NCBI GenBank assembly: GCA_000708835.1
Contig: DF237589.1
Span: 1 to 51,134 of the forward strand
Source of the DNA: Klebsormidium nitens
Lineage: Eukaryota; Plantae; Klebsormidiophyceae
Length of the DNA stretch: 51,134 bases
Direction: 5' to 3'
This document shows, in pieces, positions 9,028 to 46,531 of the stretch; the first letter of the stretch is position 1, and every line of letters starts with the position of its first letter. Made by a program: the position numbers and the translations under genes. The notes beneath the pieces are model-generated. The model ran no database searches, was not told where the DNA came from, and was given only the letters and a program-made list of their open reading frames with translations.

Positions 9028-9530
9028 TGTTGAAAATTATGGTAGGGAGTCGTAGTGTAGTTGAGTTACTTGTCATCGGGTCTTATCGTGTTGCCCGGCA
9101 CCCATGCTCATCACTCATCAATGGCAGCCATGCATCCCAAGAGGAATACACAAAGCACCTCACAAGCGGCTTCCTTCTCTCCAGAAACTTCTCTTACTAA
9201 TGATGTATCACATTAGTAGTTTCCACCACCATATGTCTTACGGGTCTCTCCCGTTCCACTAGGCTCACTAGCCTACTAGGCTTACTAGCCTAAGTCACAC
9301 ATCACTAGGCTCACTAGCCTAGCTCACAGTCACACTCAATCTTAGCCTTCGATATTTTCATCTGCGGCTGACACTGACGGCCGCTCTCAAGCACAGGTAA
9401 CCGCCAAACCGCCTAACGGTTGACTGTCCAACCGCCATACACGCACGCCGGCGCTCACTAGTCCAAACTACACGGGTCGAATCCTAATCACATAGTAACT
9501 CGGCTGACTATAATCTTCGAACTTCTAACA
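9028..9530 (-). repeat. 5' LTR
   Basis: TGTTGAAA...TCTAACA on the + strand, flanked by the PBS and the TSD. Confidence 0.92.
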
Positions 9531-25739: not shown

Positions 25740-28700
25740 ATGGGTGAGGAGCAGCTCGATGAGGCGTTCATGCGGCGCCTTTGGTCGCTCGCGAATTTTG
25801 CAGAAGACCAGATTGGGGCCATCTCAGCGCTTCTTATTAACAGCCCTCAGAATCTCCGGGTCGCTAAAATTATGCCAAATGATGCACAGCTGGGGGGCTT
25901 TTTGCGACAACTCCTGAAGATGCAAGGTGAGCGGGTCTAGTTGCAATCCCGTTTCTTCCTTCTCGCAATCTCCAGGCAGTGACATCTTCAACATAGAATC
26001 CTCCTGCATCCCCTTCTGGTTGCGCGATGAAGACCTAAAAGGAACTTCAGCAAAGTTTTCTTGACTGCTTTTGCGATGTACAGAAGGAAGGTAGGACAGG
26101 CATAGTTGACTCTTTGTAAGAGCAGAGCATTCCACACAAGAGTTGGGCCCCTGCAATAGCAATCATGCATGCCTGCATATGGGCAGAGCGCTGGAGCTCT
26201 TTGGTTTATGGTGGACGCCGTGATCCACACCATTCCCCTTGTGTGTTGGTGCCCGTTCGGAAACTGTCCCATTGCTTACCGGGTTCTTGCACCTGTTGGG
26301 CCAGAACGAGTTGACATGATCCCTGAGCCGGGTGGTCTGCTGAAAAGCTGCCTGGTCGCAGCATCCAAAGCAGCCTCTGCTCAATGTAGGGAAATGCTCA
26401 GGAAGTTGCTTGAAAACCTCTGTTTGTTGCCACTAAATGTGCGATACTAGTAAGCACGCTGGAGGTCATGTCAGGGTGGTCTTATTTGGTTCACCAAGCA
26501 AAGCTCCTTTGCAGGCTTGATCTCCGCCAGCATATTTCAAGGGTTTCTGCAATTGCCAGCTTGGATTCGTACTTGCCTTGATCTGAGAGGTAGTTCAAAT
26601 TGCTGATTGCAATGCAAGGGTGTGAAGAGATCTTTGACAAAGTCGTTGGGTTTCTGTAAGATTGGCGCATCTTAGAGCACGTTACTGCTTTTGGTTGTTG
26701 AGGCTCACATTCTGAACATGCAAGAAAAGTCAGCTGCCTGCGACTCTCGTCTATTTTCTCTCATGAACAATTTTCCCTTGAGATTTTCCACAGGGATCCA
26801 CGGGTGTGCACTGAAAGTATTGGGCCTGGGTCGCTGCTTGGGCTGGACAATGTGTCTGCATCTTCATTGATCAAGCTGTCTTTAAAAGATTGGCTCGAAG
26901 GAGGACCCCGCTAGCGACTCAGGACACGGGTTGCCTGAGGATCTTTCTCTGCCCGCTTTGAGCATGAGTCGTTGAGCCCGATGATTTAACTAGAACGCTT
27001 TGCAAGAGCTGCGAAGAAGATGGAGCGCGTCTCAGTCAGTGCAGAAAGGCAAGAGTTTCTGATTGCTGCAGAGCCGCAGAAGGAGGCTGTACGAGTTGAG
27101 GAATTCCTCCAGCTGAAGGGATCAGTCGCTGACCTGCAACTCAAGTATGACGCATCTACTCGGTCATCAAGGACAGACGCCAGTGTTGGCAAGGTAGGTT
27201 TTCGCATCAGGTCAGGTGCCGGATATTGATTTGGAGTCGCTGAAGAATGTACTCAGCAGATTACATCTTTGCGAATTTGTGAGCTAGTGTGATGCAGCTA
27301 ATCTGGTATGGCTTGGTTGTTGCATCCGAAATCGAGCAACTGTGCAGAAGCTGAGTTCTTCGCTTTTGCTTGCAGTTCTGGCGTGCAAAGGCCGTTAAGA
27401 TCAAGGACTTGCCGTTTCTAGCTGCTGTTGCCGACTCCGAACTGGATCAAGTAGCCAACGCCGTGCTGGAGAGGTTTCCAGAGAAAAAGAAGACGGGCCT
27501 GGAGTATGCCCCCGTCAAGTCCCTCCAGACTGGCGAAGAGGAGGCTGGACTTTCTTCTCCTTCCAGTGAGTCATTAACTGTTGCTGTCATGTCAGAGACG
27601 GAAATCATGAACTTGCTGTGGTTAGTTGCCTGCTTTTCTCATGAAGGTTTGTCATGATCTGCGCCAGGAGGCTGCAGTTTTCCCAGTTGCGGTAGTACAC
27701 GGTCCTCTGAGCGGGTTTGTGATGAATTTTTGTCGTCAGGAGACAGCACTTTTCCCCTTCTTATGACTGAATATGGTCCTCTGAACACTTGGCTCCATTC
27801 TTGTTTTGCCTGAGCCTCAAGTTCTGTCTTGAAAAGGTCTGCTCAGCGTATCTAAAGCCAATGTTTCGCTCTCGACAGACAAGAAAAGAAAAGGGCCCAG
27901 CCCCTCATCCCCGACGCAGCCAAAATTGCCCGGTTACACCCTAGCTGACTGCATTCCAGCCGCAAGACTGCCAAAATTCAAAGAAGACGCCCACATGCAA
28001 CCAGCAGTAATCAAGATGGTTGAGGCAGCCCTGGGAGTGCTGAGGTCAAAGCTCATCCTCAGAGATACACACGACTCCAGCAACCAGTTCATCCACCCAG
28101 TCGGCAGACCGGATCTGAGCCTGCTAGCAGCAGCGCTTATTGCGTGGACGCAGCTTGTCTCAGTAGGCGAATTCAAGCTTGGGGAGGGCACGGATGACAT
28201 CGACAGCATGTTCGGCCAGCTGATCAATCGCACGGCGGCGATTCTCGACAGTCAGCCTGACAGGCAGCGGGTCGTCTCCTTTGGGTTGACAATGAATTCG
28301 ATTGAGGTCGTGCACGTGCATCGGGGTCAAGACAGGACCTGGGTCGTGCAGACGATAGGGCCTTTGCCTTTCAGCATCAGCCGCGAGTCCGCAGGATTCA
28401 AGATCCTGATCAGGCTCTTAGCAACAGAGCTCACCGATCTTGGGTTTCTGCAACCAGAGATTCCGGAGGTGCATCTGAGCAGGGAGCTCTGTAATCTGGA
28501 GCTACTCAGGAGGGGCCAATTGCAGGCTCCACAGGGCACAGCGCCGAACAGGGTGGGGAGTGTTGTCTTTCAAGCCTCAACTGCTGGCCACAACAACTGC
28601 ATCCTGAAGCTCTGCCACTCGGGAAAAGAGGTAAGCATTTTGTGTACCGAGCACATAAAGCCTTGGGTGGCTCTTCAGACCCTATCCTGCTTCGCTTGGA

Positions 28701-31054
28701 GCTGTTTCCAAGATGTTTAGTGTGCCCTCAGCCGCCGTCCTCGTGATGTAGCTTACTTGAAGTTCCCTTCCCTTCCCTTCCTTGCACCATTTCACGCTCT
28801 CCCATTTACCATTTTAGGCCCGCACTTCCATGTCCTGAGAGAGAGCAAAGATTGATTCTGACTTGCTTCCGAGACAGCTTTGACATATCAAGACTGGAGA
28901 TCACCACCAATTTAGGATCGGACTCTCAGTCCTGAAGTCAGTGGTCATCAACATGTCGAGATTTCAAGCTTCGAGTTTTCTGAGTGTCATTGCAAGATTG
29001 TAGAGAACGAACCTGCAACGGGTTGAGATGCGAAGAAGGCATCAACAAACGTCGACCCGTTGCAAGGAAAGGGCACCAGTATGGGATTTATCCACGTGTC
29101 CAAGTAGCACTTCTATTGTAGCTTTTCTACCCTAAACGCTCAAGATGCTCTCCTCTGACTGCAGGGCGACGTCCTCAACTATCTTGGGCAGTGCGAGGAG
29201 GTCTCTAATGTCGTGGAACTTCTCGAGCGTGGCAAGTGCACGTACAATGGTCGCGACTGGGACGCGCTGCTTCTCATTCCTGTCGCCGTCCGACTGACCC
29301 AAGAGCTGCCAGTGCAGGTTCTGGCGCAGGTGCGTGACGGCAACATGCATGAGTCTGACATAGTCCAGACTGTGCCTTGCTACTTGCAGAGTGGAGGTGC
29401 AAAATGACCCGTGAAGCTGCCAAAGGTCTTGATTGTGTGTTGGGCATCTTCTGTGATTTGTGCCGTATCTCTCTGTGCCCTGGAAGTGCTGCCTGCTTTA
29501 GGAGTCCGACATTGGCTTCAATATCTGGACAATCCGTTTTGGGTATTTCTAGAGCTTTTCCGTGGGTGGCAGCAGCTTGGTCTCCGTGGCGCACTTATGC
29601 GCATGACTTTGAGCAGCACTGTTACGGGGAGAAAGCGTGTGACAGATTCGGCCCGCACTCCACTCCAGAAAGCAAGTTGCGCAGGAGTGGCAAGCCCTTG
29701 AGAAATTTTGGCGCTCTGCGCGTCGATCTGATCGAACGTGCTGAAGTGTCTTCGCTTGTTACACCAGGCTATTCGTTTTCTTGTTATACCTGCGCGCAAC
29801 CCTGCACAGCGCCTTTCAGGAGGTGCGGATGGGATGATGTATGGGCACTTTGTCCACCCTGCGTGTCGGTGCTGGCAATTTTGCATTTCGTCCGTGCAGG
29901 AGAGCTTAAGCACTCTCTATGCTGCAGCTTATAGGCACCTGTTGTAATCATGCCTTCTCATTTGGTAGCTGTTGATGATTCTTCAAGCAAACGCTCGTCG
30001 TGCAGGTGACGCTTGACCTAGCTCATGCGATTGACGCGTGTTTGAAGGTTGGAGTAGCGCATCGCGACATTTCGTTGGACAACATCGGCATCATGGACGG
30101 CCGGGGAGTGCTGTACGACTTCTCAGCTGCCAAGGTACGTGTGGTTCCTGATCTGTTGAGTCTTAAGAACATTCCTGCAGGTGCTTCTGCGGATCTGCAC
30201 GTACAATATATTGCAAATCCCAGTGGCTCCTACATTCATCGACATCTCCGTGTGCAAACAACTGTCGCAATCTCATTTTTCAACAACTCTGTTTCCCGTT
30301 GACTGAGGCCAGAACGCGTGGGCAATGCCTTTTCGGGGCGGTGACCAATAAGAGTTATTGTCAGTCCGTTCGGGGAAATTTCGTTACGAGTCGGGCCCAA
30401 GTGGAAAGTTCTCCATCGGGCGGAGATCAACTTCACTACGTGTACATACTGTGTATCATTGTTGGTTGAAGGCCGGGCGACCGTCAAAATCAGGCCGTAA
30501 CCTGTGATTAGTGTAACAACCAAACAATGTGGACGAGATCTCATGCACATCCTTTACAGTCGCTGTCCTAGTTCCGTCGTCCCCTATTCACATCTGTCCT
30601 CTCTGCCTTTTTGCAGTTTATTGACCCAAAGGATCGCGACACAATGGAAGCCGCCAGCCCTTCGGGCAAGTTGGAGGCCATCACTGGAACCAGCCGGTAT
30701 GCGGCCCTCTCGGTCTTGGAAGGGCGAAGTCACACAACGAGCTCGATGTTGGAGAGCCTCTACTTGAGTATCCTTTCGGCCTGCTGTGATGAGAAGTTGA
30801 CGGGTCGCCACGATATGAAGATCGAAGACCTCCAAAAGTGCCAGATAGTTAGGCGAGGAAGCATGCTTGCACTGCGACCCCCGGACTTCTCGAAGGTCCC
30901 GTCCTCTCACTTGGGCTTTGTCAGGGAGATGCACGAGCTGTTCTACCCGTTGCAGTCCGGATCGGCTGCAAGAATGTACAATGTTGCAGTAGCGCTGGAC
31001 AAATTTGAGGAGGTTTGTAAGATGTGGATGCAGCCTCTCACTGCTGCGAACTGA
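25740..31054 (+). CDS. Crinkler/CR-effector-like protein: N-terminal header + PD-(D/E)xK REase-fold domain + FunK1-like protein kinase
   Basis: Phase-consistent exons 25740-25926, 26994-27192, ~27376-27565, 27879-28630, ~29165-29328, ~30006-30134 and ~30617-31054. REase motifs: MQP...DTH...RPDLS...WTQLV..GEFK...GQL...ILDSQPDRQRV. Kinase motifs: ILKL..KE, HRDISLDN, YDFS, TGTSRYAALSVLEG..H....LES. Confidence 0.75.
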
Positions 31055-32904
31055 GAAGGTGGATGAACAAGGAAACCTTGAAGTACTCCTGATCTAAATT
31101 GCCTCCTGCTGATTTTGTTGTGCTTCTTTTATTTCTTTCAAATCAGCACCAAGTAGGGATAATCATCTCTTATAAGGACATGTGCGCAATCGGATGATGC
31201 TATACAGACGGGTTGGATCGAACATGGCCTGAGTCAATACACTTTATGGAACGCACAGTGGTTGACAACCCGCATGCATCAGCCCTTTGCGGATCGCAGC
31301 TCAAAACCGTGCATTTTCATTCAATCGCATGGATACTTTCCCTCCACAAGTGGCGCAACTTCGGGTTGCCTTGCATGGCATATTGCACAAGTCACGGTGG
31401 ACACTCAGCATGATGGTCTCTTTTCGAACGCTTTAAGAAGGCATATTGGAATTCCGTCTTTAAAGGTGAAGGCCTACCTACCTTCGGAATCAGAACATCA
31501 TGCATCCACGTAAGGGAAAACCCGAGGTCCTGTAGTATGTAAACAAAACCGGAGATTCTATAGTATGTGAACGAGATCGCAGTGCTTATTGCACGCATAG
31601 GGCCTATGCTATGGATTGCTACTCCTCCGCCGCACGTGCCTATCTGTCCATGATTGACATTAGCAATACTTGAAATCAGGATCAATACGCAAGTGTCGAT
31701 GATGACAAGGTGTGAACCGGCGCGCAAGTCTTGCTAGCCATCATCGCGATCCTGTATATATACATCCCACTACAAGGACCATGATCTTTCAATAATCTGG
31801 ACGATGATGGCCAGGGCATGGACGTTAGCTTCTTCTGTTTAGGAGCTGGACAAATGCACGAGTGCTGTATGTCGCTAAACCCTCAAACCCCGCACGCAAC
31901 GGTCCAACTGCAGTGCAACACGGCCGGCCGCCGCATCCGCCCCAACCCTGGGGACCCAACCCAGCTCGGTCAGTCTACCGGGCACCTAGGGGTCCCGGGG
32001 CATAGGCTATGTGCCATAAGGCCCAGGACCTGTTGTAAAGACACCATTACCATCCGCACCGTGACCGTTCCCGCCCGGTTCGATACACAGTCTGCATGGC
32101 CGAAGCTGCCACCTCTAGTCTCGAGCTCCCATCATTCTGCAACTTCAGTCGGAAAGCCGAGTAGGATAGCGATAACTCAGCTAGCGACAGGCTGACCTCG
32201 CAAGTTGCATGGGCGGACTTGGAGCTGCAAGCCGTGACCAAGCGCCAACCTAAGTGTTTTCAGGCATCAAGTAAGTGATTGTGCTGGCAGCTCATGCTCT
32301 TCATACTGCGGAACTTGCATGTTCGACTGTCCTATTTACAGCGTTTGCAAAAGTGCCGTAATGGTCCACTGCTGGCATTGCAAAAGGAAAGCATGAGTGG
32401 TGTGCTATTGGGATTTCTGACCCGGCGGATTGCGATAATCCTCTGGGGTTCGTTGCGCGCAACATCAAGGATCATATAGTGTTCGAGATGGTTCGCCAGA
32501 GGTCGGAGATGCCGGCACGGGTGCACCGCGTCAATCAAGGAAGAGGGCGACATGGGTTGTGGGGATTCATGGTTGCGATTGCGGACCGCGCAGTGTCCCC
32601 TGTTGCGGCCTTTAGTACAAGCACCAGCATGCCTCATGTTGATCGTGTCTTCGATGACAAGATTTGCCAGATTGTGATCAAACGGCGATCTTGACTTGTA
32701 ACACGTGACAAGTGGCAGCTCGAGAAGAAGCTGGATATTGAATTCTTTTGTGCGCCGTAATTTAACAATCAAATGGATACAATCTTTGGGTACTGCCCGC
32801 GGTCGCGCTCTGCAATTCTTGAGATGGATCGTTCTGTGCTACAGAGCGCTCGGTGTGCTATCATAAGAAGCTTTCAAGAATTTGGATTGCTTGAAATGGT
32901 TCTT

Positions 32905-33397
32905 NNNNNNNNNNNNNNNNNNNNNNNNNNNNNNNNNNNNNNNNNNNNNNNNNNNNNNNNNNNNNNNNNNNNNNNNNNNNNNNNNNNNNNNNNNNNNNNN
33001 NNNNNNNNNNNNNNNNNNNNNNNNNNNNNNNNNNNNNNNNNNNNNNNNNNNNNNNNNNNNNNNNNNNNNNNNNNNNNNNNNNNNNNNNNNNNNNNNNNNN
33101 NNNNNNNNNNNNNNNNNNNNNNNNNNNNNNNNNNNNNNNNNNNNNNNNNNNNNNNNNNNNNNNNNNNNNNNNNNNNNNNNNNNNNNNNNNNNNNNNNNNN
33201 NNNNNNNNNNNNNNNNNNNNNNNNNNNNNNNNNNNNNNNNNNNNNNNNNNNNNNNNNNNNNNNNNNNNNNNNNNNNNNNNNNNNNNNNNNNNNNNNNNNN
33301 NNNNNNNNNNNNNNNNNNNNNNNNNNNNNNNNNNNNNNNNNNNNNNNNNNNNNNNNNNNNNNNNNNNNNNNNNNNNNNNNNNNNNNNNNNNNNNNNN
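32905..33397. other. Assembly gap; other gaps at 6318-6584, 8258-8797, 24948-25218, 41561-42307, 45725-46145
   Basis: Runs of N. Confidence 1.
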
Positions 33398-33948
33398 GCT
33401 GTGAAAGTGAGTTGGCGAAGCGCCTTGAATCGCGCCACTCAAGCACGACGCCGTGCACAGAAGTTGCCAGTCAGATCGGCACATACAAACGAGCATGATA
33501 CGGAGGCGTCATCTCCCAAGATTCGTGCAACACCAAGAGCAATCTCCCCGTCAGGCTATTCGTGTCGTGCCCCAAGTATCATTTGGGACGACAACGAGCC
33601 GCTTTTGGGGCTCGAGATGCTTGCAAATCCGGAGAAGGCTCGAGTGGCTCACGAAGCCTCTGTAAAAACGTCGCCCAGATAACGGGAATGTGCTAAAAGT
33701 CCTCATTTCTCATTTTTGTACACCTCCAGTCACAGTATCCAGGGCCAGTGTATTTTGCTAGCAAAATGAACCGGCAGCTAGGACCCCAAGTCGGGTTTTG
33801 GAGATTGCTATAACCGTTTTCACTGTTAAAAGCTGCTACCCATCTCAATTTCGTACGATCGATTTTGAACGTGGTCATTCATGGTATCTGGGGTTGAGGA
33901 CGTTTGGATGGTCAAAAAAATCTTAGCAGTATCCAGATAACGTGAAAC

Positions 33949-35004
33949 ATGCAAGGGCCTATTGAAAGCACGAGACATATAACCATCGTAATTCAAGGGG
34001 AAAGGCTACTGCGCTCGGCCTTCGAGGATGGCACTCGAAAGGATTTGACGACTCAACAATATATCAACCATGTCATGCGCTTGTTTCAAGGGTTCAAACA
34101 ACAACAAGACTTTACCAGCTTCGATTGGATTAAGGATGCCGACGGGATTATCAAGTATTTTCAAGAAGCGTATCCCACAAAGCTATCGATGCAGGTCACT
34201 GGAATAAATCCGCTTCTTGTGATAGCTCGCAAAGCATTCCCCGATGACAAACAGCTCTATGATGCTTATTACAAGCGGTATATAGAGGTTCGAAAGCTCA
34301 TGGAAGATGCAAAACCTCCTCCCCAGCAGTTGACAGAGCGGGAAGCGGCCAATTGGAAGACCTTGGACCAGATCAATGAACGCCGAAAGGAGCTGCAAAG
34401 GCAAGTGAATCGCAAGATTCTAAACAAGAATCCAAAAGATTTGTCCGATGAGGACAAAATTGTGCTTTTTCGCCACCTCATCCTGTGCCTTTATAGCTAT
34501 CAAGCTGCAATTCGCAATGATTACAGCGATTGCCCCATCGTGCGCTTGAAGGACACCAAAACGGCCGAGGCACGTGACATCATGTCCGGTTCCGGGAACT
34601 ATCTCTTGGAGATTGCACAAGACCACTTTCGATTGGTTTTGAACAATTATAAGTCTGTCAAGCACCACGGACCCACTTCGATAGACATGTCAACCCGATG
34701 CAACAATGTCATTGCCGAAAGCCTTCAAGTCTTTCCCCGAAAGTTTCTTTTGTCTCAAATTAAGTCGCCTGACAAGCCAATGAGTCGAAACTATTTGACC
34801 AAGTTTTGCAGCACGGGCCTTTTCAAGGACGCGAGTGTGGGTTCATGTCTCCTTCGCAAAATATGTATAAGCAACCTCTTCAAAGATGCTCCAAGCATTG
34901 CCGAGCGCGAAGACCTTGCGCGGAGCATGTTGCATACGGCAGCTATGGCACAGCGGACATATGAGAAGAAATTTAACCCGGATGGAACTCGGATCAAGTT
35001 TTGA
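33949..35004 (+). CDS. Tyrosine recombinase/integrase, virophage/Polinton-like-virus type (351 aa)
   Basis: Catalytic pattern R189 (LYSYQAAIRNDY), K235 (LNNYKSVKHHG), R303 (LLRKICIS), H329 (ARSMLHT) and Y338 (QRTYEK), preceded by a helical N-terminal region. Confidence 0.85.
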   Translation: MQGPIESTRHITIVIQGERLLRSAFEDGTRKDLTTQQYINHVMRLFQGFKQQQDFTSFDWIKDADGIIKYFQEAYPTKLSMQVTGINPLLVIARKAFPDDKQLYDAYYKRYIEVRKLMEDAKPPPQQLTEREAANWKTLDQINERRKELQRQVNRKILNKNPKDLSDEDKIVLFRHLILCLYSYQAAIRNDYSDCPIVRLKDTKTAEARDIMSGSGNYLLEIAQDHFRLVLNNYKSVKHHGPTSIDMSTRCNNVIAESLQVFPRKFLLSQIKSPDKPMSRNYLTKFCSTGLFKDASVGSCLLRKICISNLFKDAPSIAEREDLARSMLHTAAMAQRTYEKKFNPDGTRIKF

Positions 35005-35036
35005 ACGGTTTGCAATTTGCCACTTGGGAGCTGCTT

Positions 35037-35387
35037 TCAAGACACTTGGATGCCTGTGAATGCGCCTAGATGTAGCGAGGGCACTTCAATTCCATCTGAC
35101 GTTTCTGAAGACCCAATTCGATTATCATCGTTCTGCCATGCATTATACGGAAGCTTCACCGGAAAGCCGGCATCAAGAAGGCGCTTTAGAGTCCTTCGTT
35201 GACACGTATGCCCATTCTGGTAGCGCGCGAAGGCTTGGGCCAAAAGGATCGCGCCCCTATGTCTTTGGTAGTATCTCTTCGTGTAAGTCTTTCGAGCATT
35301 CGGATGCTTTTCGTAGAATTGCTTGATACTTTTGCATACTTTGCAAGGGCAACAATCGTTCAAAGCGCTTTCTTTATGCGACTCCAT
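35037..35387 (-). CDS. Small basic protein (116 aa) with CCxCxxC and a basic helix
   Basis: MESHKESALNDCCPCKVCKSIKQFYEKHPNARKTYTKRYYQRHRGAILL... It fills the gap between YR (convergent) and Prim-Pol (divergent) almost exactly. Confidence 0.6.
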   Translation of the reverse strand: MESHKESALNDCCPCKVCKSIKQFYEKHPNARKTYTKRYYQRHRGAILLAQAFARYQNGHTCQRRTLKRLLDAGFPVKLPYNAWQNDDNRIGSSETSDGIEVPSLHLGAFTGIQVS

Positions 35388-35478
35388 GCTGAGTACTAAT
35401 ATCAAGGTAAGAAAATTTGCTTGACCCAATAGCCGAACGCACATGCGTTTGAACGGCCTCATTTAAAATCTTGTCAGA

Positions 35479-38250
35479 ATGTACGAAGAAATGGCGGACG
35501 CCCAAGCTAGCCTCTCAGGACCTCAGGCCGCTCATGTTCCTAGGCCCGCAGGTGCCCAAGCCGTTGCAGACGAGATCCAACGGCTCTCCAACGTTGGGCT
35601 ATATGCAGTCCCTGTGCGCATGTTTTGGAATAAAATGGAGGGTAAGAAAGATGCCAACTTTCCATACAAGTATGCGCACATCACAACACCAGAGTTGTGG
35701 AAACATTCTATCAACAAAGCAAAGCAAGAAAGGAAGGACGCCAACGGCATCGCAATTTTGACACGTCCCAGTCGGATCTTTGTGGTCGATATTGATGTGT
35801 CCTCCAAAGATGGAAGATCACCGGGGCTCCAGCTCTGGAACCAACTTGTCAAAGAACACGGTGAGCCTCAAACATTAAAGGCACAATCAGGGTCCGGAGG
35901 GTACCATTACTATTTTAAGGCAGCTACACCCGGCCTCAGATGCACCCGTAACTTTGCAGGCATCAAGGTTGGTGACATCGAACATGGTATTGACGGTCGA
36001 GCCGGTGGAGGGATCGTTTTTGCTCAGCCTGCAAGCTACGTCAAGCCTCAGGGCAAACTTGCGACCTACAGATGGCTCAATGGGCCCGCCAGCTTTGAAG
36101 CATGTCAAGACATGCCTTCGTGGCTCGTAAAATTTCTCAACGATTACGTTCAACAAACTGCAACCGACGAGATCAAAAAGCACAATTCATGCAAGAGTGA
36201 CTTGTCGGATGCTACCCCATCTGTTGTTGACATGTCAACACCTCTTCAAGATGTGCAAGGCACGGAGGCCCTCCCTGGATTGGAGGGTGCACTTCAAGAG
36301 ATCAAGAGATTGATGCGTGATGAAGTGCAAGACGAGAATAGCACTTTCAACGGGATCGAGGAGAGGACCCCTAATGGGTGGCGAATCATAAAGTTTAGGA
36401 CGAACGGCGTGCGAACTTGCTTAAATGGTCACCAACACGATTCGAATCAGTTTAGTATCTTGAGTAACGGGGGCATTTTCGTGTACCGTTGTCTGAGTCC
36501 AGGGTGCATTGACCGGCCAAAGCAACTGCTAGGCATTCACTTTTGGCCCGAGTGTCTGCCACTGAGAGCGGATGGGAAAGTCATCAAGGACTGTGAACGC
36601 TATCTGCTCCCCTTTGAAGCACCGAACAATGGGGACGCCGATAAGAAGAAGAGCAAAGAAGATGACGACCGCACCAAAAAAGCAAAAGTGGATCTACAAG
36701 ATCTCGTATTACGCATCATGAATCACTACTTTGCAGTGGTTGTTGAAACGACGAGAACAGTCTACCTCGAGACCATCTACGCACGAGACGCAACCGGCCA
36801 TCTTCAGCGAGAGGAGACAATCAATCGGTCCGGCCATAACTTTCTCGAGAGATGCAAAAACTTGCAGCTCTACAGTATGCCCGGCAGAGCAAAGGATGTG
36901 GCAAAGTGGTGGGAAAGCAGTCCAAAACGCCGCGAATACGATCAAATCGTGTTTGAGCCGGACCTCTCTAGAGTTCCTTCTCGACACTTCAATCTGTTTT
37001 GCGGGCTCAATTTTGAACCGGTCACGTGCAAGTTGACCGATGCCGAGCTCATCGAGTGTGAAGGCAAGATGCCAAAGCTTATCTGGCACATTCGCAATGT
37101 TTTAAGTGATCAATCCACCGAACGCTTTGAATACAACATAAAGTGGATGGCGCATGGAGTTCAAAGGCCCTGGCGGAAGATCCAAGTGGCTTTTGTGTTT
37201 CGCGGCCCGCAAGGGTGCGGCAAATCGACGTTGTGGGATTTCTACGGCCTCAAGATACTTGGAGGCAAAGTTTACTTGTATTGTAATGAAATCGAAAAGG
37301 TCATTGGACGGTTCAACTCTCTTGGAGTCAACAAGCTTCTGATTGTTCTGGACGAGGCGGGCTCATGGGGCGGAGCGTACAAAATGAACGATCGGATGAA
37401 GTCCGCAATCACGCAAGAGTTGACGTGCCTCGAACTCAAGGGGCAAGACGCAATCATCGTGCAAGACAAGTGCAATTTCGTATTTACCACCAACAATGCT
37501 TGGCCAGTAAAAAGAGAAGCGGATGATCGTCGATACTCCTGCCAAGATTGCTCGGGAGTCAAAGTTGGAAACAAGAAGTACTTTGACGAGCTTCTGCAGG
37601 AGCTGGAAGATCCGCAAACTGCTTTTCATTTTCATCAATATTTGTCGTCGATCGACATCTCCGATTGGGATCCCAAAAAGATGCCAGTTACCACGTGGGG
37701 TGAAGAATTGAAGGACCATTCGATCCCCCCCTATGTTCAAATGGTTCAAGCTCTCCTCGAGAATGGTTGCTTCCATCCACATTTGGAGACGTGGGTCGCA
37801 TCTGTGGATATCAAGCGTACATACGACACGTTCTGTGCACAAATGGACATCAAAGAGGATCGCCATATTGATGTCAATGTTTTGATGCGCTCCCTGAAAG
37901 GCGTCTTTCACATGAGGGCACAAGCGCGTACCATTCAAGGGAAGCGAACGCACAAAGGTTGGTGGTTCCCCCCGCAAAGCGCTGTTTGCAAGGCGCTTCA
38001 TGATGGCAAGCTGTTGAGTTCGACCGTCGAATGGGTCGATACTTGGCAACGAATTGAGTACGACGAAGACAAAGAAGGGCCGTGGATTGCAGCTGCCAAA
38101 TCGAGTGATAATTTGAAAGACCCTCAGAAGCTGAACGTCGATGCTCCTTGCTCGTGTTGTGGAAACAATCATGGGTGGCGGGTGCGAAGGGATAACGAGG
38201 GACATATTGAGACGCGTAAAGAGACAGAAGATGGATCGTCTGATGCTTGA
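35479..38250 (+). CDS. Bifunctional primase-polymerase (AEP Prim-Pol) fused to a D5-like superfamily 3 helicase (923 aa)
   Basis: Prim-Pol: GIAILT...FVVDIDV (D104/D106), SGSGGYHYYF (H143), IDGRAGGGIVFAQPAS. Zn-like CLNGHQH...CLSPGC. Helicase: Walker A GPQGCGKS, Walker B LIVLDEA, motif C FTTNN, DDRRY. Confidence 0.93.
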   Translation: MYEEMADAQASLSGPQAAHVPRPAGAQAVADEIQRLSNVGLYAVPVRMFWNKMEGKKDANFPYKYAHITTPELWKHSINKAKQERKDANGIAILTRPSRIFVVDIDVSSKDGRSPGLQLWNQLVKEHGEPQTLKAQSGSGGYHYYFKAATPGLRCTRNFAGIKVGDIEHGIDGRAGGGIVFAQPASYVKPQGKLATYRWLNGPASFEACQDMPSWLVKFLNDYVQQTATDEIKKHNSCKSDLSDATPSVVDMSTPLQDVQGTEALPGLEGALQEIKRLMRDEVQDENSTFNGIEERTPNGWRIIKFRTNGVRTCLNGHQHDSNQFSILSNGGIFVYRCLSPGCIDRPKQLLGIHFWPECLPLRADGKVIKDCERYLLPFEAPNNGDADKKKSKEDDDRTKKAKVDLQDLVLRIMNHYFAVVVETTRTVYLETIYARDATGHLQREETINRSGHNFLERCKNLQLYSMPGRAKDVAKWWESSPKRREYDQIVFEPDLSRVPSRHFNLFCGLNFEPVTCKLTDAELIECEGKMPKLIWHIRNVLSDQSTERFEYNIKWMAHGVQRPWRKIQVAFVFRGPQGCGKSTLWDFYGLKILGGKVYLYCNEIEKVIGRFNSLGVNKLLIVLDEAGSWGGAYKMNDRMKSAITQELTCLELKGQDAIIVQDKCNFVFTTNNAWPVKREADDRRYSCQDCSGVKVGNKKYFDELLQELEDPQTAFHFHQYLSSIDISDWDPKKMPVTTWGEELKDHSIPPYVQMVQALLENGCFHPHLETWVASVDIKRTYDTFCAQMDIKEDRHIDVNVLMRSLKGVFHMRAQARTIQGKRTHKGWWFPPQSAVCKALHDGKLLSSTVEWVDTWQRIEYDEDKEGPWIAAAKSSDNLKDPQKLNVDAPCSCCGNNHGWRVRRDNEGHIETRKETEDGSSDA

Positions 38251-38264
38251 CAGGTACCTCTCTT

Positions 38265-38695
38265 CTTATTACCCCTTCATTACTCTATTCTATTACACAC
38301 AACACACATGATCGAACCTATGAACAGCTTAACAACGCAGATGTGCATGACTTCATTACCTTATTACCCCTTGTATTTGTATGTGTGCATTTCTTTCGAC
38401 TTTTGCAATGCCCAACCACGTGTTTTGATAAAAAGAAAGCGACTTGACAGTGGGGGTAATGGTGTCACGAGTGATGGGTACATACGTATGCTTATTACCT
38501 TCTTATTACTCTTCTTAACACACAACAACACACATGATTGAACCCATGAGCAACCCAGAAATCGCCGGCGCAGTTACTCCATGATTGCATTATCCCTCAT
38601 TTCCAAATACTTGTGAACATCGTTTTCCAACATTTCAAATGCCCAACATGCTGTTCTCCAAAAAGAAAAGGACTTAAAAAGATGGGTAATACGGT
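38265..38695. repeat. Two imperfect ~200-bp direct repeats, each bounded by inverted ATTACC(C)...GGGTAAT
   Basis: 38265-38463 vs 38491-38695 share CTTATTACC, ACAACACACATGAT.GAACC.ATGA, AATGCCCAAC, AAAAAGAAA..GACTT and GGGTAAT. Confidence 0.8.
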
Positions 38696-38719
38696 TGCAA
38701 GGTATGAAGGACTTCAAAG

Positions 38720-41700
38720 TCAACAACGCCCCCTCTTGATCGAGTCTCTCAACGGATTGCTAGCCTTGCTCCAGTAGACTGCGTACTTTGACCGTTCGAA
38801 CAATGTATCAAGGATCGTTGTGACTCTACTCAGCAGCCGTTTGATGCTCGTGATCTGTTGGAGGCTAGGCGCGCATCTCTTCAAGCCCGAGTTGATGCCC
38901 TCCGATGCCGTCGTGATCGTCTGGGCATGTTGGGGAAAGGAATCGATGAAGAGTGTCGGCGAGCACGTGTGCGTTGCATAGCGCTTGGCCCCCGAGGGAG
39001 CGCAGCTGATTGGCCCCGAGTGAAAGCGGTCCACCACAAACAACATGAACTTAGCTATCTGTGGCACCCGGTTGAGGAACCATTCCTGGGCATTGCAGGC
39101 AGCGTCCTCGACAATTGTGAGCCCCCGCAGCGCCTTGAAAGGGAACCGCGTGAGCAGCACGGTTCCCAAGTCCGACACGGACTCGCCCCCCTTCAGCCAA
39201 TGATAACCGAGGGGCGCCCGATCTTGGCAGCACGCGATGAAAACCCCCGCCCGGCCCTTTGACGACCGCGGATTTGGAGCGCTACAGTGCTGGGTGAGAC
39301 GCTCCTCCGATCCCTTCTTTCCACGCCCAGTGCCATCCTCCCAATCCAAAAATTGAGGCCGCCCGTACAACAGAGGGTGGAAGTCGTACGAGGAAACAGC
39401 TTGGACTCGTTCAGCATAAGCCACGGAGGGCGCTGAAAGGAACCCCCCCTCCCCATAGCACTGAGGCTCGCGCGTTTCTAACTCGAACAGCAGCGAGTTG
39501 GCGACCCTCTTCAGAGCCGCCGCGTGCCTTTCCGCGTACCCCATCGCCGCCGGCTCCGGTTGGCCCACGAGCCTCAGCTTCTCGCCCTCAATCGTCCACA
39601 AATGCTCCGTAGCATCATGGAGGGCCGCCAAGGGCGACCGAGGGGACGAGGTTGGCCGGTTCGCGCTCGGCTCGAAGCACAGTAGGTTCGTGGCGTAGAT
39701 GTCGCGCAAGAGGGGCCGCAGAGTTGGGGGGCAGATGTACAACCCTCCAGCGACCGGATGCAGGCGCAAGATGGTTGCCAGCATTGGGGCGTCCTCGGAG
39801 AGGTATGCCATTCCACGCTCGTCCAACGGCCCCTCTAGCAGGAGGTGTCGAAGCAACTTCAGCCCCACCACATGCCCAAACACCCACGAGTAGCGAGGGA
39901 TGAGGAGCGCGTGAAGGAGGGCCCCATACGGCTGCCAGTGGTTGGGGCACCATCCTGTCGCCCCGACCCGCCCGTCTTTCAGATGCCCTTGCATCCAAGG
40001 ACGCCGCGGGATTCCCTTGCATACCGCGCACGCGGTTGGATCCGCACATCCGACACCCGACTCCGTCACGAAGTCAATCAAGGCCCGCACGTTTGCTGGC
40101 AACCCCTCCCGCATGGCGACGAACTCCTCCGGCTTCAGAGGCGCATTGCTCCCTTGCGCTTGCGCTTTTCGAAAGTTGCACCAACGTTGCGCCAGAGCAC
40201 GCACGGCCGGCCGCAGCTCCGAAAGCCCGTTCCGATACTTCCACTCGCAATCGATCCCCTCTGACGGCACGACAGAGGGCCGCACCCCCCCAACGCTCAG
40301 AGGAGTGAAACCCCCAGCCACTCGAGACGCCTCTGGATCCGGCTCACAGACGCTATGAAGCGACGCCTCCGTCTGAGAGTCCCTCATAGCGCTCGAGTTG
40401 GCGAAGAAGGTGCCATCAAAAGTGACGACTTTGTCCCTCCCAAAAGCATAAGTGGCCAGCTCAGATTTTGCCCCCTCCGTTCGCTCCTGCCGCAAAGGCG
40501 TTCCGGCCGAGCGCGCCTCCGTCTCAGCCGCCTCGACCTCGCTCGAGTACAGGTGCGCGCAATCGGCACGCGCGAGCACACGTGCTGGATGCGCGAGCGC
40601 GCAGCCAGATCATTGAAGGCTTGCATGGCCGAGTCGAAGACCCGGTCGTCCAACCGTGGGACGGTCGGGCCCTCAAGGCACCGCGAGGCCATGTCGTTGG
40701 CCTCGAAGTTCAGGCTGTGAGAAGCGCCGAGCGCCGCCGCAAAGTGATTCCGAAGCAGCAGGCCGTGGGAGATGAGGGTGGTCCCCGAGAAGTTGAAGAT
40801 ATCATCTTCCTGCAGAGAGGTTGAAGAGGACGGTCAACTATCATGGTCTTCAAAAAGCACTTTCACATCTTCCAAGTATAGCTGCTGAAGACACTCCTTT
40901 GCTCTGACCTGACTCTGTTTGTACTCTGCGCAGAACGTTTCTAGATCCTTCTTGTAAAGCGTCATCATACTAACGAATGCATCCAACGTCCGAGAATCTG
41001 GAAAGAAGTCCTTCACCATCTCTGAGTCGGGCCTCATGTCATAGTCCACTTGGTCTTCGCAGTCCGATGTTTCAGAGGAGTTGGGATCCTCGTCCGAATT
41101 GCCTCCGGGCGCGTCCTCGTTGAAACACCTCAGATCAGATATACGGCCAGCTTTACCCCACGATCCTCTCACAAGGATACTGTACAACATGTTCAGAGCT
41201 TGCTTCTCTGATATCACACTGACATCCAACTCATCAAAGTAGACGTCATCAAAGTAGAAAGACATCTCCGTCGTGTCTGTGAACCTAAGGCAAGAGTAGT
41301 GTGTCTTAGCATACCAGCATATTTCGGTTGGAACATATGTGACGTGGTACATGTAATCAAAGTCGTACACGTCATGCGAGTACGCCCCATTTTCGGGCAG
41401 AACGAGGAGCTCTCTCTCAAACAGCCGTTTCTGATTGCAGATCCAATGATAGTGCACCGTGATTTCCCTTCTCTTCACGCGATCGCCAATGTCTTTTGCA
41501 ACGTCGAGAGGCAGCATCATGTAGACCTCTCTCAGATGTATAGGCTCCATCACAGACCTANNNNNNNNNNNNNNNNNNNNNNNNNNNNNNNNNNNNNNNN
41601 NNNNNNNNNNNNNNNNNNNNNNNNNNNNNNNNNNNNNNNNNNNNNNNNNNNNNNNNNNNNNNNNNNNNNNNNNNNNNNNNNNNNNNNNNNNNNNNNNNNN

Positions 41701-43675
41701 NNNNNNNNNNNNNNNNNNNNNNNNNNNNNNNNNNNNNNNNNNNNNNNNNNNNNNNNNNNNNNNNNNNNNNNNNNNNNNNNNNNNNNNNNNNNNNNNNNNN
41801 NNNNNNNNNNNNNNNNNNNNNNNNNNNNNNNNNNNNNNNNNNNNNNNNNNNNNNNNNNNNNNNNNNNNNNNNNNNNNNNNNNNNNNNNNNNNNNNNNNNN
41901 NNNNNNNNNNNNNNNNNNNNNNNNNNNNNNNNNNNNNNNNNNNNNNNNNNNNNNNNNNNNNNNNNNNNNNNNNNNNNNNNNNNNNNNNNNNNNNNNNNNN
42001 NNNNNNNNNNNNNNNNNNNNNNNNNNNNNNNNNNNNNNNNNNNNNNNNNNNNNNNNNNNNNNNNNNNNNNNNNNNNNNNNNNNNNNNNNNNNNNNNNNNN
42101 NNNNNNNNNNNNNNNNNNNNNNNNNNNNNNNNNNNNNNNNNNNNNNNNNNNNNNNNNNNNNNNNNNNNNNNNNNNNNNNNNNNNNNNNNNNNNNNNNNNN
42201 NNNNNNNNNNNNNNNNNNNNNNNNNNNNNNNNNNNNNNNNNNNNNNNNNNNNNNNNNNNNNNNNNNNNNNNNNNNNNNNNNNNNNNNNNNNNNNNNNNNN
42301 NNNNNNNGAAGACTCGCACCTGCCGCCCGCCGCGCCACGCCGCCGCGTCTGACCCTCTGAGAACCGCCCCAACCAATCCGCTCTGATCGATTGGCAAGAC
42401 CCACGAGACGCCGCTTGTGACCTCTCGAACGAACGGACGGCTTCCGTCAAAGGCCGTGAAGATGGCTTCCCCGCCCTGCCACCAGCCGCCCATAGAACGG
42501 GTCCCCTCCAGGAACCCCATTTCGTGGTCCCGGCACGCCTTTTGACCGCAGAGGCACTGGAAGCTGACCGTGTGGTCGACCTTGACGAGCCGGGGGACGT
42601 TACTGAGCCCTCGATCCGTGGCAGAGATGTCCAGGAGGCGCCCACTGGAGGCGTCGAGCAGGGACACAAGAAAGAGGCCGGGGGCGACGGCGATCGGGGG
42701 GATCTTGCTTCGGGTGAGCTCCGAGAGGAGGGCAACCGAGCCGAGCTCTCGTGGGCTCGGCCCCTCATCGAGCGCCCTCTTTACCCCCCGCTTCAATGGA
42801 GCAGCCGTTCTAGATTCGCGGCAGAATGGGCAGGCGGCAAGGTCCCTCCTCTGCACGAAAAACTGGTGGCCGCCCTCGCTTGCCTCCTCCCCTGACTGTA
42901 CCTCTCGAAGCTCCTTCGTCCCATGGAAGGTTTCATACTTGGTAAAAAGCTCTTGCTGAGGAACGGGGCATCCGCTCGCGCTCGAGACAAAGGGGCGTCC
43001 AGCTTCATACTCGGCTTCTACGCACCGCAAGCACAGGAGGTGCCCTCCTCCACCCCGACAGATCAGTGCTCCACCCCTGTTCCGTTTCCGCTCCCAGACA
43101 AAGGGTTCGCTGCCCCGCGTGTAGACCGCTCCTTTCCCGCTGCACGTGCGTCCAATGCACGTCGAGCCGAATCCGCCTCGAGCAAAAGCTCCAGCAGGCT
43201 GCAGACTGAAGGCAAACCCATAGTCGAACATAAAGTCCGTGCCCCCCTGCTTGGCTGCATAGGACGGGCGCCCTCCTCGCACGCCCCCAGCATTTGGCAG
43301 GGGCGGGACGGCAGCCGGGACGCTTCTGACGTCGCGGAAAAGTGGAGCCGAGCCCTGGAAGTAGACTGCCGCGTAGCTCCGAACGGCTTGACCAAGGGCT
43401 AGCGCCTCATGCAATTGTGCGTTGGCGGCGGGGTTGGTTGAGGCGAGGAGCACGACATTGGAAGGCTCTTTCACATCTCGAGAGACCGTCGCAGGGTCCA
43501 TCCTGCCACGGGAACGAAAGAGAAACTCTGAGTTTTGGTCGTTCTCAATCTCCCTAAGCTCTTGCAAGATTCTAGTGGGTTCTCTTGCATCTTGGAACAG
43601 CGCCATCAGCATCCACCTCACGGCAAAGCAGATCCTGGCATTCTGAGCCCGAATCTTATCCCTAAGCTCTTGCAA
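38720..43675 (-). mobile_element. KDZ-superfamily (Kyakuja-Dileera-Zisupton) transposase gene, spliced, one apparent frameshift
   Basis: Core motifs: VTFDGTFF; GVFIACC...GYHWLKGGESVSDLGTVLLTRFP; IVEDAACNAQEWFLNRVP; VVDRFH...HTC; TASEGINSGLK. Upstream: DDIFNFSGTTLISHGLL and Cys clusters (CLRC, CPFC, FQCLCGQKACRDH). Predicted intron 42319-40810; frame change near 40565-40585. The 5' end is uncertain and may extend to ~44000. Confidence 0.8.
40834..41550 (-). CDS. Hypothetical intronless ORF (at least 238 aa) nested in the predicted KDZ intron
   Basis: Stop-free frame from the gap edge (41560) to 40834: MEPIHLREVYMMLPLDVAKDIG... aromatic-rich, with an acidic tail. Less GC-rich than the flanking transposase exons. 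Confidence 0.65.
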   Translation of the reverse strand: MEPIHLREVYMMLPLDVAKDIGDRVKRREITVHYHWICNQKRLFERELLVLPENGAYSHDVYDFDYMYHVTYVPTEICWYAKTHYSCLRFTDTTEMSFYFDDVYFDELDVSVISEKQALNMLYSILVRGSWGKAGRISDLRCFNEDAPGGNSDEDPNSSETSDCEDQVDYDMRPDSEMVKDFFPDSRTLDAFVSMMTLYKKDLETFCAEYKQSQVRAKECLQQLYLEDVKVLFEDHDS

Positions 43676-44139
43676 AAACGCATAATTCTACTCATAGTGA
43701 TCGATGCGAGAATTGAAGGATCGTTGGCTAATCTCACGGGCAAGAAAGGAGCATGTTGGCACGAGCTGGCGGTGCTTGCTGGAGGTTGACAAGGTCCGGA
43801 GAGGCCCGTGCTGGTGCAACGCGGCAAGGTTTGGCGAGAACTGGCAGCATGTGGGCCAAAAGTACCATGGACCAGACTCGAAGTCGGCATAACCCCTTGA
43901 CCGTTGCCAGCCTGCAGATAAGATGTTGTCGTAAAAAGCATAAGCGCTGAGAGAGTCGCGGCAACCCTGTGCAAGACATGGGCGCTCACACGGGCAGCCA
44001 TTTTCAAACTTTCAGTGGCATTTCCAAATTGTCAGTGGCAACCAGTCAGAACTTCCTCCATGAGTAGAAGCTTTGTATACCTCTAGGTCAAAGCTTTTGA
44101 CTCATAGGCAAGACCGTCTTTCTCTGGAGAAGGCTGTGA

Positions 44140-44950
44140 GTGATAGTGCACACCAGTCAAAGGTTCCTTTGTATGTATAAGCTTTTCATCCCTTGAGGAC
44201 GAATCTTTTGACTCGTGAGACATTTCGTCCATTTTCCCAGAAAGTTGTAAGTGATAGCGCAAGACAGTCAAAAGCTCCCTCGTGAGTATAAGCTTTTCAT
44301 CCTCTGAGGTTAGGAATTTTGACTTGATTGTAAGGCCGACCATTCCACCAACAATCCAACAGATGTTGTGAGTGATAGCGCCCGCCAGTCAAAAGTTCCC
44401 TCCTAATATAAGCATTTGAGCTTTTCAAGACAGAACTTGTGACTTCTCCGCAAGGTCGACCATTCAACGCAAGATTCTCAATAGCTGTGGGTGATAGCAC
44501 CCACCAGTCAAAAGTTCCCTCTTGATATAAGCATTTGAGCTTTTCAAGATCGAACTTCTGACGTCCTCGCAGAGCCGACCATCCCACCAGCGATTCGACA
44601 GATATTTTTGACTCGCTGCAAGGCCGGGCCGACCATGCATTCTACCAAGAATCCGACAGATGTTGTCAGTGATATGGTGATAGCGCCCACCAGTCAAAAG
44701 TCCCCTCTTGATATAAGCAATTGAGCTTTTCAAGATAGACCTTCTGACTTCCTCGCAAGGCCAACCATTCCACGCAAGATTCTCAAACGCTGTGGGTGAT
44801 AGCGCCCACCAGTCAAAACTTCCCTCTTGATATAAGCAATTGAGCTTTTCAAGACAGATTTTTTGACTTCCTCGCAAGGCCAACCATTCCACGCAAGATT
44901 CTCAAACGCTGTGGGTGATAGCGCCCGCCAGTCAAAACTTCCCTCTTGAT
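44140..44950. repeat. Tandem array of ~119-bp units (7 copies, degenerating leftward)
   Basis: The anchor GTGATAG(C/T)..cc.CAGTCAAA starts at 44140, 44251, 44372, 44491, 44677, 44796 and 44915 (spacings 111, 121, 119, 186, 119, 119). Confidence 0.92.
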
Positions 44951-46531
44951 ATTAGCTTCTAAGCTCTTCACAACAAGAGTTTTCACTTTCAGCCTCTGAA
45001 GACACTATGTCCACGATAGTAAAGACCACTGCTAATAGCGGCGACCAGCGACGCGCACGCAAGGGAGGCATCACAACCTGATTGTGTGGCATGATAAGCG
45101 CCGCTATGTGTCAAAGTTGAACGCCCTGCCCCAATGAGTTCCATTTAAATTCAATCCGTTTGAAAGTACAGCACCACCCTCCTCTTGCAAAGCGAGCGGC
45201 ACATGCTGGAAAACATCCAAGAAGCTCAGCAGAGCAAATGCCCCCAGCTAGTTGTCAGTACTTCAGTTGAATGCGATCAACAAGAGAGTTGTGCACTTGA
45301 ATGATGATTGCACACGCAAAAATACCAAGGTCCACCGCGTATTGCACACACACCTTGATCCGGAGTTGCGACGCGACCAGATCATTGTAATGGTCGATCT
45401 CGCCTCTCGCTCACCATAGCGCTGCTGAATCCTTGCGCAATCTTTGAATCCAGAAGTCCACATACATATGGTGACACAGTTCGTGGAACAGAATGTATGT
45501 CTTTGGCTGAGTGCACTTGGGGGAGGGCCAACGCGTAGACTTGGGGCCGCTCAGCCGAGTGGCTTAGCTCAGTGTACATAGTGACACTGACAGGGAAGGC
45601 TCGCGGCTTGCCAGAGCCTTGCAAGGGGTCTTGCGAGTCAGGCAGCCTTCAGTGTGGCTTTTAAGGTTGCCTAGGCGCATAGCTTATGGGATTTGGGGCC
45701 AGACCGGGCACTTTCACTGCTTCCNNNNNNNNNNNNNNNNNNNNNNNNNNNNNNNNNNNNNNNNNNNNNNNNNNNNNNNNNNNNNNNNNNNNNNNNNNNN
45801 NNNNNNNNNNNNNNNNNNNNNNNNNNNNNNNNNNNNNNNNNNNNNNNNNNNNNNNNNNNNNNNNNNNNNNNNNNNNNNNNNNNNNNNNNNNNNNNNNNNN
45901 NNNNNNNNNNNNNNNNNNNNNNNNNNNNNNNNNNNNNNNNNNNNNNNNNNNNNNNNNNNNNNNNNNNNNNNNNNNNNNNNNNNNNNNNNNNNNNNNNNNN
46001 NNNNNNNNNNNNNNNNNNNNNNNNNNNNNNNNNNNNNNNNNNNNNNNNNNNNNNNNNNNNNNNNNNNNNNNNNNNNNNNNNNNNNNNNNNNNNNNNNNNN
46101 NNNNNNNNNNNNNNNNNNNNNNNNNNNNNNNNNNNNNNNNNNNNNATGATTTATCGACGGCGCTCACAGAAGCCCTGCTCATCGGACGGCCGAGAGAGTT
46201 GGGTGGTTTTTGAGACTCGCGCCGCCCCACTAGGTACGGTACATCGCGCACCCAGCATACCACGTGACCTGCTCGGCAGGTGTGCTGCCAGGAAGCTCCA
46301 GTCTGGATTCTGGGAGGGGAAGCCTAACGTAGGTAGCACTCGACGTCGCGTCACGAATGTCAGGGGCGCAGGAGGACTTGATTGCCGTTGACCCCGCACA
46401 TTGAGGACAGCCTGGAGGAAGACAGTCAAGACTAGTCCAGTGTTTGTTGCTTGGCTGCTGTGCGTTTGGGCTGCCCACACGGTGCGGTGGACGGGTTGCT
46501 TTGGCTGGGGTAAGCGCTGCTCGTGGGCACA

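What the first reader, a model, noticed from the sequence alone, without database searches (positions are those of the whole stretch)
33949..38250. Capsid-less integrase + primase-helicase element in an algal nuclear genome (candidate eukaryotic satellite or self-replicating integrative element)
Seen: three intact, intronless, tightly packed ORFs. They are a tyrosine recombinase retaining R189/K235/R303/H329/Y338, a 116-aa basic protein, and a 923-aa AEP Prim-Pol/SF3 helicase fusion with all core motifs. No capsid, packaging ATPase, PolB, RT or DDE integrase ORF is visible in the sequenced flanks. Established: YR plus a primase-helicase occurs in Polinton-like viruses and virophages, which normally also carry capsid genes. 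Integrase plus primase-helicase without a capsid is the core layout of bacterial phage satellites (P4, PICIs). Cryptons have YR only and DIRS have YR+RT, so neither fits. Inference: this is a ~5-kb element that could excise as a circle, replicate itself, and rely on a helper giant virus or PLV for spread. Intact catalytic sets amid otherwise decayed mobile DNA suggest recent or ongoing activity.
Basis: partly seen in the sequence, partly recalled or inferred. Interest (0 to 1): 0.88.

Follow-up and report, generated by a model that had tools for sequence, protein, structure and literature searches.

The report
Viral replicon joined to algal transposon
Three intact virus-type genes for DNA recombination and copying sit tail-to-tail with a likely transposase gene, an arrangement repeated at several places in the alga Klebsormidium, so this is likely one larger, capsid-less mobile element that would both copy and insert itself, not a stand-alone 5-kb satellite.

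Summary
The three ORFs are real and intact: a tyrosine recombinase (YR) of a family also found in Polinton-like viruses and virophages, a small basic protein, and a Prim-Pol/DUF5906 primase-helicase. No capsid gene was found in the sequenced DNA. The link recurs: in 6 of 8 Klebsormidium nitens helicase gene models seen, YR pieces precede the helicase and the KDZ-like gene follows; 14 of 20 helicase-bearing contigs (matched by length) also carry it. The region is multi-copy, between host genes, so contamination is unlikely. The unit is therefore probably 12-14 kb, but its ends, target duplications and any circles were not found. Best reading (0.5): a composite transposon in which KDZ inserts, the primase-helicase copies and the YR resolves. 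Main rival (0.3): a YR replicon that inserts itself beside KDZ transposons; GC content and sequence divergence of the two halves differ. Nothing supports a helper virus. My literature searches found no such combination; each part and pairwise combinations are known.

The parts
33949..35004 (+). Tyrosine recombinase, 351 aa (P0001), PLV/virophage/giant-virus-type family; R189, K235, R303, H329, Y338
   Evidence: 23 close homologues at 35-93%
35037..35387 (-). Small basic protein, 116 aa (P0002); weakly like the basic tail fused to some distant YRs, so likely a DNA-binding accessory (inferred)
   Evidence: profile of 14 YR tails scores it 11.9 bits against at most 4.2 for 200 shuffles; Atlas 0.89-0.90 to unnamed viral clusters, a lead only
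35479..38250 (+). Prim-Pol (AEP) + DUF5906/NrS-1-type helicase, 923 aa (P0003)
   Evidence: 13 homologues at 46-90%
38262..38700 (.). Spacer with two diverged 226-bp direct repeats, each with ATTAC-rich left end and an inverted GGGTAAT near its right end; candidate origin or recombination site (inferred)
   Evidence: (ATTAC/GTAAT 9 copies in 469 bp, 0.4 expected); no stable hairpin
38720..43612 (-). CxC4-KDZ-like transposase gene, about 1,300 codons in relatives; 5' exon 43612/43501-42308 running into gap 41561-42307, intron acceptor at 40811/40812, 3' exon 40812-38720 with a 2-base insertion near 40570 relative to relatives
   Evidence: a near-identical contig (1 mismatch) is 2 bases shorter over 40126-41300
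40834..41559 (-). Open frame of at least 241 codons nested in the KDZ-like gene's intron, same strand, 47% GC; no family found
44041..44988 (.). Array of about eight 119-bp tandem repeats upstream of the KDZ-like gene; candidate subterminal region of the element's right end (inferred)
32247..33948 (.). Repeated left arm of unknown nature, including gap 32905-33397 and interrupted reading frames; probably holds the left end (inferred)
   Evidence: summed contig depth 70-129 against 19 in unique flank; no family hits

Best explanation
The three genes are the replication-recombination half of a multi-copy element that also carries a likely KDZ-type transposase gene, and the whole probably moves as one capsid-less unit of about 12-14 kb. 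Shown: the gene order YR, small ORF, primase-helicase, repeats, convergent KDZ-like gene, and its recurrence. Inferred: the KDZ protein would join the element's ends to new chromosomal sites; the primase-helicase would prime and unwind from the 226-bp repeats to copy the element; the YR would resolve the resulting dimers or cointegrates, as proposed for recombinases that accompany DDE transposases elsewhere (Tn3-family resolvases, recalled; ciliate Tec and Sardine carry both enzymes, PMC3464196). The YR-primase half most likely came from a Polinton-like virus or virophage end module.
For: Six of 8 K. nitens helicase models seen begin with YR pieces in the same orientation; those six have the KDZ-like gene at the adjacent locus tag (5: 008920020/030, 002740170/165, 013830020/010, 011360030/040, 003240020/015) or read into its antisense strand (1: 014570010). 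14 of 20 helicase-bearing contig lengths are shared with a KDZ-like homologue, across helicases 46-90% identical to P0003. Other copies diverge at 38720 into GTAAT-rich sequence like this spacer in two runs (table 7). KDZ-like motif residues E466 and D492 are kept in 13 of 13 rows that cover them, E560 in 9 of 10. Tandem repeats lie upstream of the KDZ-like gene, host genes beyond. Distant YR relatives sit in PLV/virophage contigs with capsids and Prim-Pol or DUF5906 helicases; PMC11296320 and bioRxiv 10.64898/2026.10.13.758929 describe this YR-primase pairing.
Against: No ends: no terminal repeat between the flanks and 7-bp duplication candidates at chance level (3 found, 2.0 expected). Divergence of helicase and KDZ-like genes across 8 linked copies is uncorrelated (rho 0.08, p 0.44), and GC differs (46-50% against 62%). 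18 of 32 KDZ-bearing and 25 of 31 YR-bearing contig lengths have no listed helicase (lists are length-filtered and clustered, so this is not absence). KDZ identity rests on the Atlas and sub-threshold Pfam hits; the fold prediction failed (pLDDT 35). The window's KDZ-like gene carries a frameshift. Contig-length matching is indirect, and JGI and NCBI records may be the same loci counted twice.
Confidence: 0.5

Rival explanations
1. A hitchhiking replicon: the YR, small ORF and primase-helicase form their own ~5-6 kb element that excises as a circle, copies itself and integrates site-specifically just downstream of KDZ transposase genes, riding along when those transposons jump (a satellite of a transposon rather than of a virus).
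For: GC 46-50% and intronless against 62% and intron-containing; uncorrelated divergence of the halves; on the 38,474-bp contig a 75%-identical KDZ-like gene shares the contig length with a 46% helicase and a 30% YR of a sister clade; summed depth is higher over YR/primase than over KDZ; 26 of 31 YR contig lengths have no listed KDZ homologue.
Against: The helicase is itself mosaic between copies (87% then 67% to P0030), so recombination among composite copies explains the incongruence too. No joint skipping the module among the 15 of 80 joints shown. No att-like repeat pair around the module.
Confidence: 0.3
2. A remnant of a Polinton-like virus or larger endogenous virus whose capsid module was lost or lies unseen, amplified passively as cargo of a KDZ transposon, with no role in its movement.
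For: The YR family occurs in capsid-encoding PLV/virophage contigs; half of close YR homologues lack one or more catalytic residues or are cut short (12 of 24); left flanks of other copies were not seen; three gaps remain.
Against: No capsid match from 247 ORFs of 19 viral loci; gaps are 493, 747 and 421 bp as given, and the 747-bp one must hold about 200 KDZ codons; intact catalytic sets persist across YR subfamilies 35-93% identical, which argues for selection.
Confidence: 0.13
3. One reading: a stand-alone ~5-kb satellite packaged by a helper giant virus or PLV.
For: Layout like P4/PICI cores (recalled); YR family shared with virophages and algal giant viruses.
Against: KDZ link in most checkable copies; no close relative in IMG/VR, JGI metagenome or prokaryote contigs by pattern scans; no packaging or helper-interference gene identified.
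Confidence: 0.07

Closest known systems
YR + primase-helicase 'end module' of Polinton-like viruses and virophages (PMC11296320; PMC4642659; bioRxiv 10.64898/2026.10.13.758929)
   Same: Same YR family (OLV11-like label recalled from PMC4642659, not tested against OLV11 itself) beside an AEP primase-helicase, with repeats next to the helicase; autonomy of such modules has been proposed.
   Different: No capsid module in the sequenced DNA; joined to a KDZ-like transposase; only 22-27% identical to the viral proteins tested.
KDZ (Kyakuja-Dileera-Zisupton) DNA transposons (PMC12730594; 10.1101/2025.05.19.654958; PMC8226300)
   Same: Large CxC + KDZ-like protein, multi-copy, similar overall size (KDZ1 about 11 kb), known to carry extra genes such as TET/JBP.
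   Different: Cargo is a YR and a primase-helicase; TIRs and 7/8-bp target duplications not found.
Ciliate Tec, Sardine and Thon transposons (PMC3464196)
   Same: DDE transposase and tyrosine recombinase in one element.
   Different: Tc1/mariner transposase, no primase-helicase reported in the passages read.
Amoebidium 'Plavaka giant repeats' (PMC11244446)
   Same: Intron-poor YR genes flanked by a DDE-type transposase in a eukaryote genome.
   Different: Plavaka is EnSpm-related, not KDZ (PMC12730594); tandem clusters up to 50 kb; no primase-helicase in the passage read.
Teratorn (piggyBac-herpesvirus fusion, PMC5601938, listing only), Polintons and transpovirons
   Same: Transposase joined to viral replication genes; transpovirons are capsid-less replicons.
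   Different: Different transposase and replicase; no PolB here, and no capsid.

Membership tests
Polinton-like virus / virophage | Double jelly-roll major capsid gene | tested here: not met
   No hit in the window from 247 ORFs of 19 IMG/VR loci that include Capsid_N and Sputnik-type capsids; 12 frames of 150+ codons in 31100-46500 are the known genes, their antisense shadows, the intron ORF and one 168-codon frame. Gaps and other copies' left flanks untested.
Polinton-like virus / virophage | Packaging ATPase | tested here: inconclusive
   No Pfam/PHROG hit in flanking frames, but no confirmed ATPase was among the query ORFs.
Polinton-like virus / virophage | YR + primase-helicase module (common, not defining) | tested here: met
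KDZ transposon | KDZ transposase domain with acidic triad | tested here: inconclusive
   Atlas 0.95-0.96, 21 of 30 hits in clusters where about half the members carry PF18758; Pfam KDZ only E 0.038 in 1 of 22 homologues; E466/D492/E560 conserved, their role recalled; fold model unusable. Likely, not proven.
KDZ transposon | Upstream CxC cysteine cluster | tested here: inconclusive
   CxC4 below cut-off in 3 of 22 homologues (best E 2.5e-4) and 2 of 3 full-length models; in the window this part falls in gap 41561-42307.
KDZ transposon | Defined ends: TIRs with 8-bp TSD (Zisupton, Dileera) or CA..TG with 7-bp TSD (Kyakuja), PMC12730594 | tested here: inconclusive
   No TIR above shuffles; 3 seven-base and 1 eight-base candidates against 2.0 and 0.5 expected; ends may lie in gaps.
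Phage satellite (P4/PICI) | Prokaryotic host and helper-phage packaging | tested here: not met
   Eukaryotic intron-containing flanks; no close relative in GTDB contigs by pattern scan; best phage helicase hits 24-29%, no phage hit for the YR.
Crypton / DIRS | YR alone (Crypton) or YR + reverse transcriptase (DIRS); definitions recalled | tested here: not met
   YR is linked to primase-helicase; no RT hit in the window frames scanned.
Self-replicating element | Extrachromosomal circles or replication from its own origin | not testable with these tools
   Only assembled contigs were available; none of the 15 joints shown goes back, which cannot show absence.

The most novel reading that the evidence does not exclude
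A new class of self-synthesizing eukaryotic DNA transposon that pairs a KDZ transposase with its own primase-helicase and a tyrosine-recombinase resolvase, born by capture of a Polinton-like-virus end module and spreading without a capsid by replicative transposition.
Probability: 0.35. Interest if true: 0.9.

Novelty: new variant of a known kind. Interest (0 to 1): 0.72.

Why it matters
Autonomous, capsid-less YR-primase replicons of Polinton-like viruses have been proposed (PMC11296320; bioRxiv 10.64898/2026.10.13.758929) but, in the passages read, not shown as a multi-copy family in a host genome. This family in a cultured streptophyte alga makes that idea testable. If the composite moves as one unit it is a second route, besides PolB Polintons, to a eukaryotic transposon that makes its own copy; if the module inserts beside KDZ genes it is a satellite of a transposon. 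Either shows viral replication genes being taken up by a transposon.

Tried and rejected
No whole genome was held, so copies could not be aligned at DNA level. Pattern scans for neighbourhoods of close relatives found none: viral contigs, metagenome contigs (18, 45), prokaryote genomes (111); only the distant YR P0066 gave loci (64). Foldseek of the YR model: no PDB match at E<=0.001 (best Cre, E 0.03); the catalytic half of the model is low-confidence. KDZ-domain model unusable, not searched. Rfam: nothing in 25-47 kb. Spacer folds worse than shuffles. One TSD candidate (32045/44998) lies at the end of the tandem array but in register with the repeat unit, so I do not count it. No RNA holder listed; no evidence on expression either way. 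Run X5 has a strong C>T/G>A excess and was not used for counts; X1 matches the unique flank with 0 differences and may be the window's source, so it is not independent. The right-hand part beyond 41300 has no depth profile, so the right end rests on sequence alone. Contamination rejected: X1 contigs and K. nitens gene models place the family in the algal genome. The YR tree is a quick tree of 80 rows and names no donor. Iyer et al. 2014 was not held. No complex prediction was run.
Full report
Observation. P0001 has no family hit alone, but a profile of its 23 close homologues finds 2,771 proteins at E<=0.001. In 37 aligned members R189, K235, R303 and H329 are invariant and Y338 is kept in 36; 7 of 37 hit Phage_integrase, the profile hits a solved integrase, and the modelled N-terminal domain aligns to YR core-binding domains at Z 8-9. 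The position of the usual HxxR histidine is C300 and is variable in the family. P0003 carries Prim-Pol and DUF5906 above Pfam cut-offs with the expected motifs. P0002 weakly matches a basic tail fused to some distant YRs, which suggests a real gene.

Host and copy number. All named close homologues are Klebsormidium nitens gene models, so the window is likely from this genus; that is inferred. Flanks hold intron-type host genes: AIRS-domain, aminotransferase III, kinase-like and SNARE. In run X1 the unique flank has depth 19, while summed contig depth is 166-323 over 33678-36539, 37-106 over 36540-38447 and 46-220 over 38448-41300. The tool warns that this is no copy number; I take it only as showing repeats. 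X1 may be the window's source.

The missed gene. ORF 38720-40579(-) ends 469 bp after the helicase. Its C-terminal part falls among KDZ transposase clusters in the Atlas (0.95-0.96); Pfam CxC4 and KDZ hits among its homologues are all below cut-off, and the fold prediction failed, so KDZ is likely, not proven. Full-length K. nitens models of 1,254-1,306 aa map to 43501-42308, 40812-40570 and 40579-38723. The window has a 2-base insertion near 40570; an X1 contig with one mismatch over 40126-41300 is two bases shorter, so this may be an assembly error. The intron holds an unrelated open frame of at least 241 codons, and about eight 119-bp repeats lie upstream.

Linkage. Eight K. nitens helicase models were seen. 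Six start with YR pieces in the same orientation; five of these have the KDZ-like gene at the adjacent locus tag and the sixth reads into its antisense strand. The other two (009390050, 002940120) show neither link in my lists. By longest-contig length, 14 of 20 helicase contigs also carry the KDZ-like gene; conversely 14 of 32 KDZ contigs carry a listed helicase, and 6 of 31 YR contigs a helicase and 5 of 31 a KDZ-like gene, the six spliced models not counted. The lists are length-filtered and show one contig per protein, so misses are not absences, and JGI and NCBI records may be the same loci.

Against a fixed single unit. Helicase and KDZ divergences over 8 linked copies do not correlate (rho 0.08, p 0.44), the halves differ in GC (46-50% against 62%), and the helicase is mosaic between copies. 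One contig length is shared by a 75% KDZ-like gene, a 46% helicase and a 30% YR. No terminal repeats or above-chance target duplications were found. Kyakuja elements lack TIRs (PMC12730594, passages), and the gaps may hide ends.

Origin. Distant YR relatives (22-27% to P0001) lie in 19 IMG/VR loci. Of the 8 loci whose ORFs I scanned, 3 have capsid hits and 5 have Prim-Pol or DUF5906 proteins; in L011 the YR directly precedes a DUF5906 helicase. None of 247 ORFs from the 19 loci hits the window near the element except YR and primase-helicase. This fits the YR-primase end module of PLVs (PMC11296320, passages and section 9 part 1; PMC4642659, passages) and the proposal that such modules can be autonomous (bioRxiv 10.64898/2026.10.13.758929, passages). 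The tree groups the 15 close YRs and names no donor.

Mechanism. Best reading (0.5): a composite capsid-less element of about 12-14 kb, from roughly 32 kb to 45 kb, in which KDZ integrates, the primase-helicase copies from the repeat-rich spacer (ATTAC/GTAAT 9 against 0.4 expected) and the YR resolves dimers or cointegrates. All three roles are inferred from protein families. Rival (0.3): the YR module is its own replicon that inserts downstream of KDZ genes. Less likely: passive PLV remnant (0.13) or a helper-dependent 5-kb satellite (0.07).

Novelty. DDE + YR is known from ciliate Tec and Sardine (PMC3464196, passages); a transposase beside YR genes from Amoebidium (PMC11244446, passages); KDZ elements from fungi and Chlamydomonas (10.1101/2025.05.19.654958, PMC8226300, passages); transposase plus viral replicon from Teratorn (PMC5601938, listing only). 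Searches for KDZ with YR or primase, and for Klebsormidium with YR, found no description of this combination (judged from listings plus passages of the papers named, and PMC5890265 and PMC10288648). Repbase, subscription papers and supplements were not seen and may hold it. Earlier scan notes had no look-alike. Verdict: new variant of a known kind, interest 0.72.

Noticed in passing
window 40834-41559 (-): Open frame of at least 241 codons inside the KDZ-like gene's intron, 47% GC, no family; other copies diverge at the intron boundary (40814), so intron content varies between copies.
   Followed up: partly
window 25700-31100 (+): Single-copy intron-type gene with a weak Pkinase_fungal hit (E 0.002); a related sequence in run X1 aligns over its exons at 29997-30948.
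   Followed up: no
window 31953-32021: Short repeated stretch with a GC-rich inverted repeat; contigs from three runs (X1, X6, X7) end about 34 bases from variants at 31987/31988, suggesting a conserved repeat boundary near the possible left end.
   Followed up: partly
window 6215-6949 and 9028-9509: Direct repeat pair about 87-93% identical, about 2.8 kb apart, enclosing ORFs and a gap; LTR-like layout, no Pfam hit inside.
   Followed up: no
window 19344-21041 (+), 22576-24603 (-), 47221-48912 (+): Host genes: AIRS-domain exons, class III aminotransferase, SNARE-domain gene.
   Followed up: no
proteins P0010, P0012-P0018, P0020: At least two further YR subfamilies (51-62% identical) on contigs of 37-53 kb with no listed helicase or KDZ partner; their neighbourhoods are unknown and could be other element types.
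   Followed up: no
L017 (IMG/VR): Virophage-like contig with Sputnik-type capsids, Prim-Pol/D5 helicase, a YR of this family and a ribonucleotide reductase small chain.
   Followed up: no
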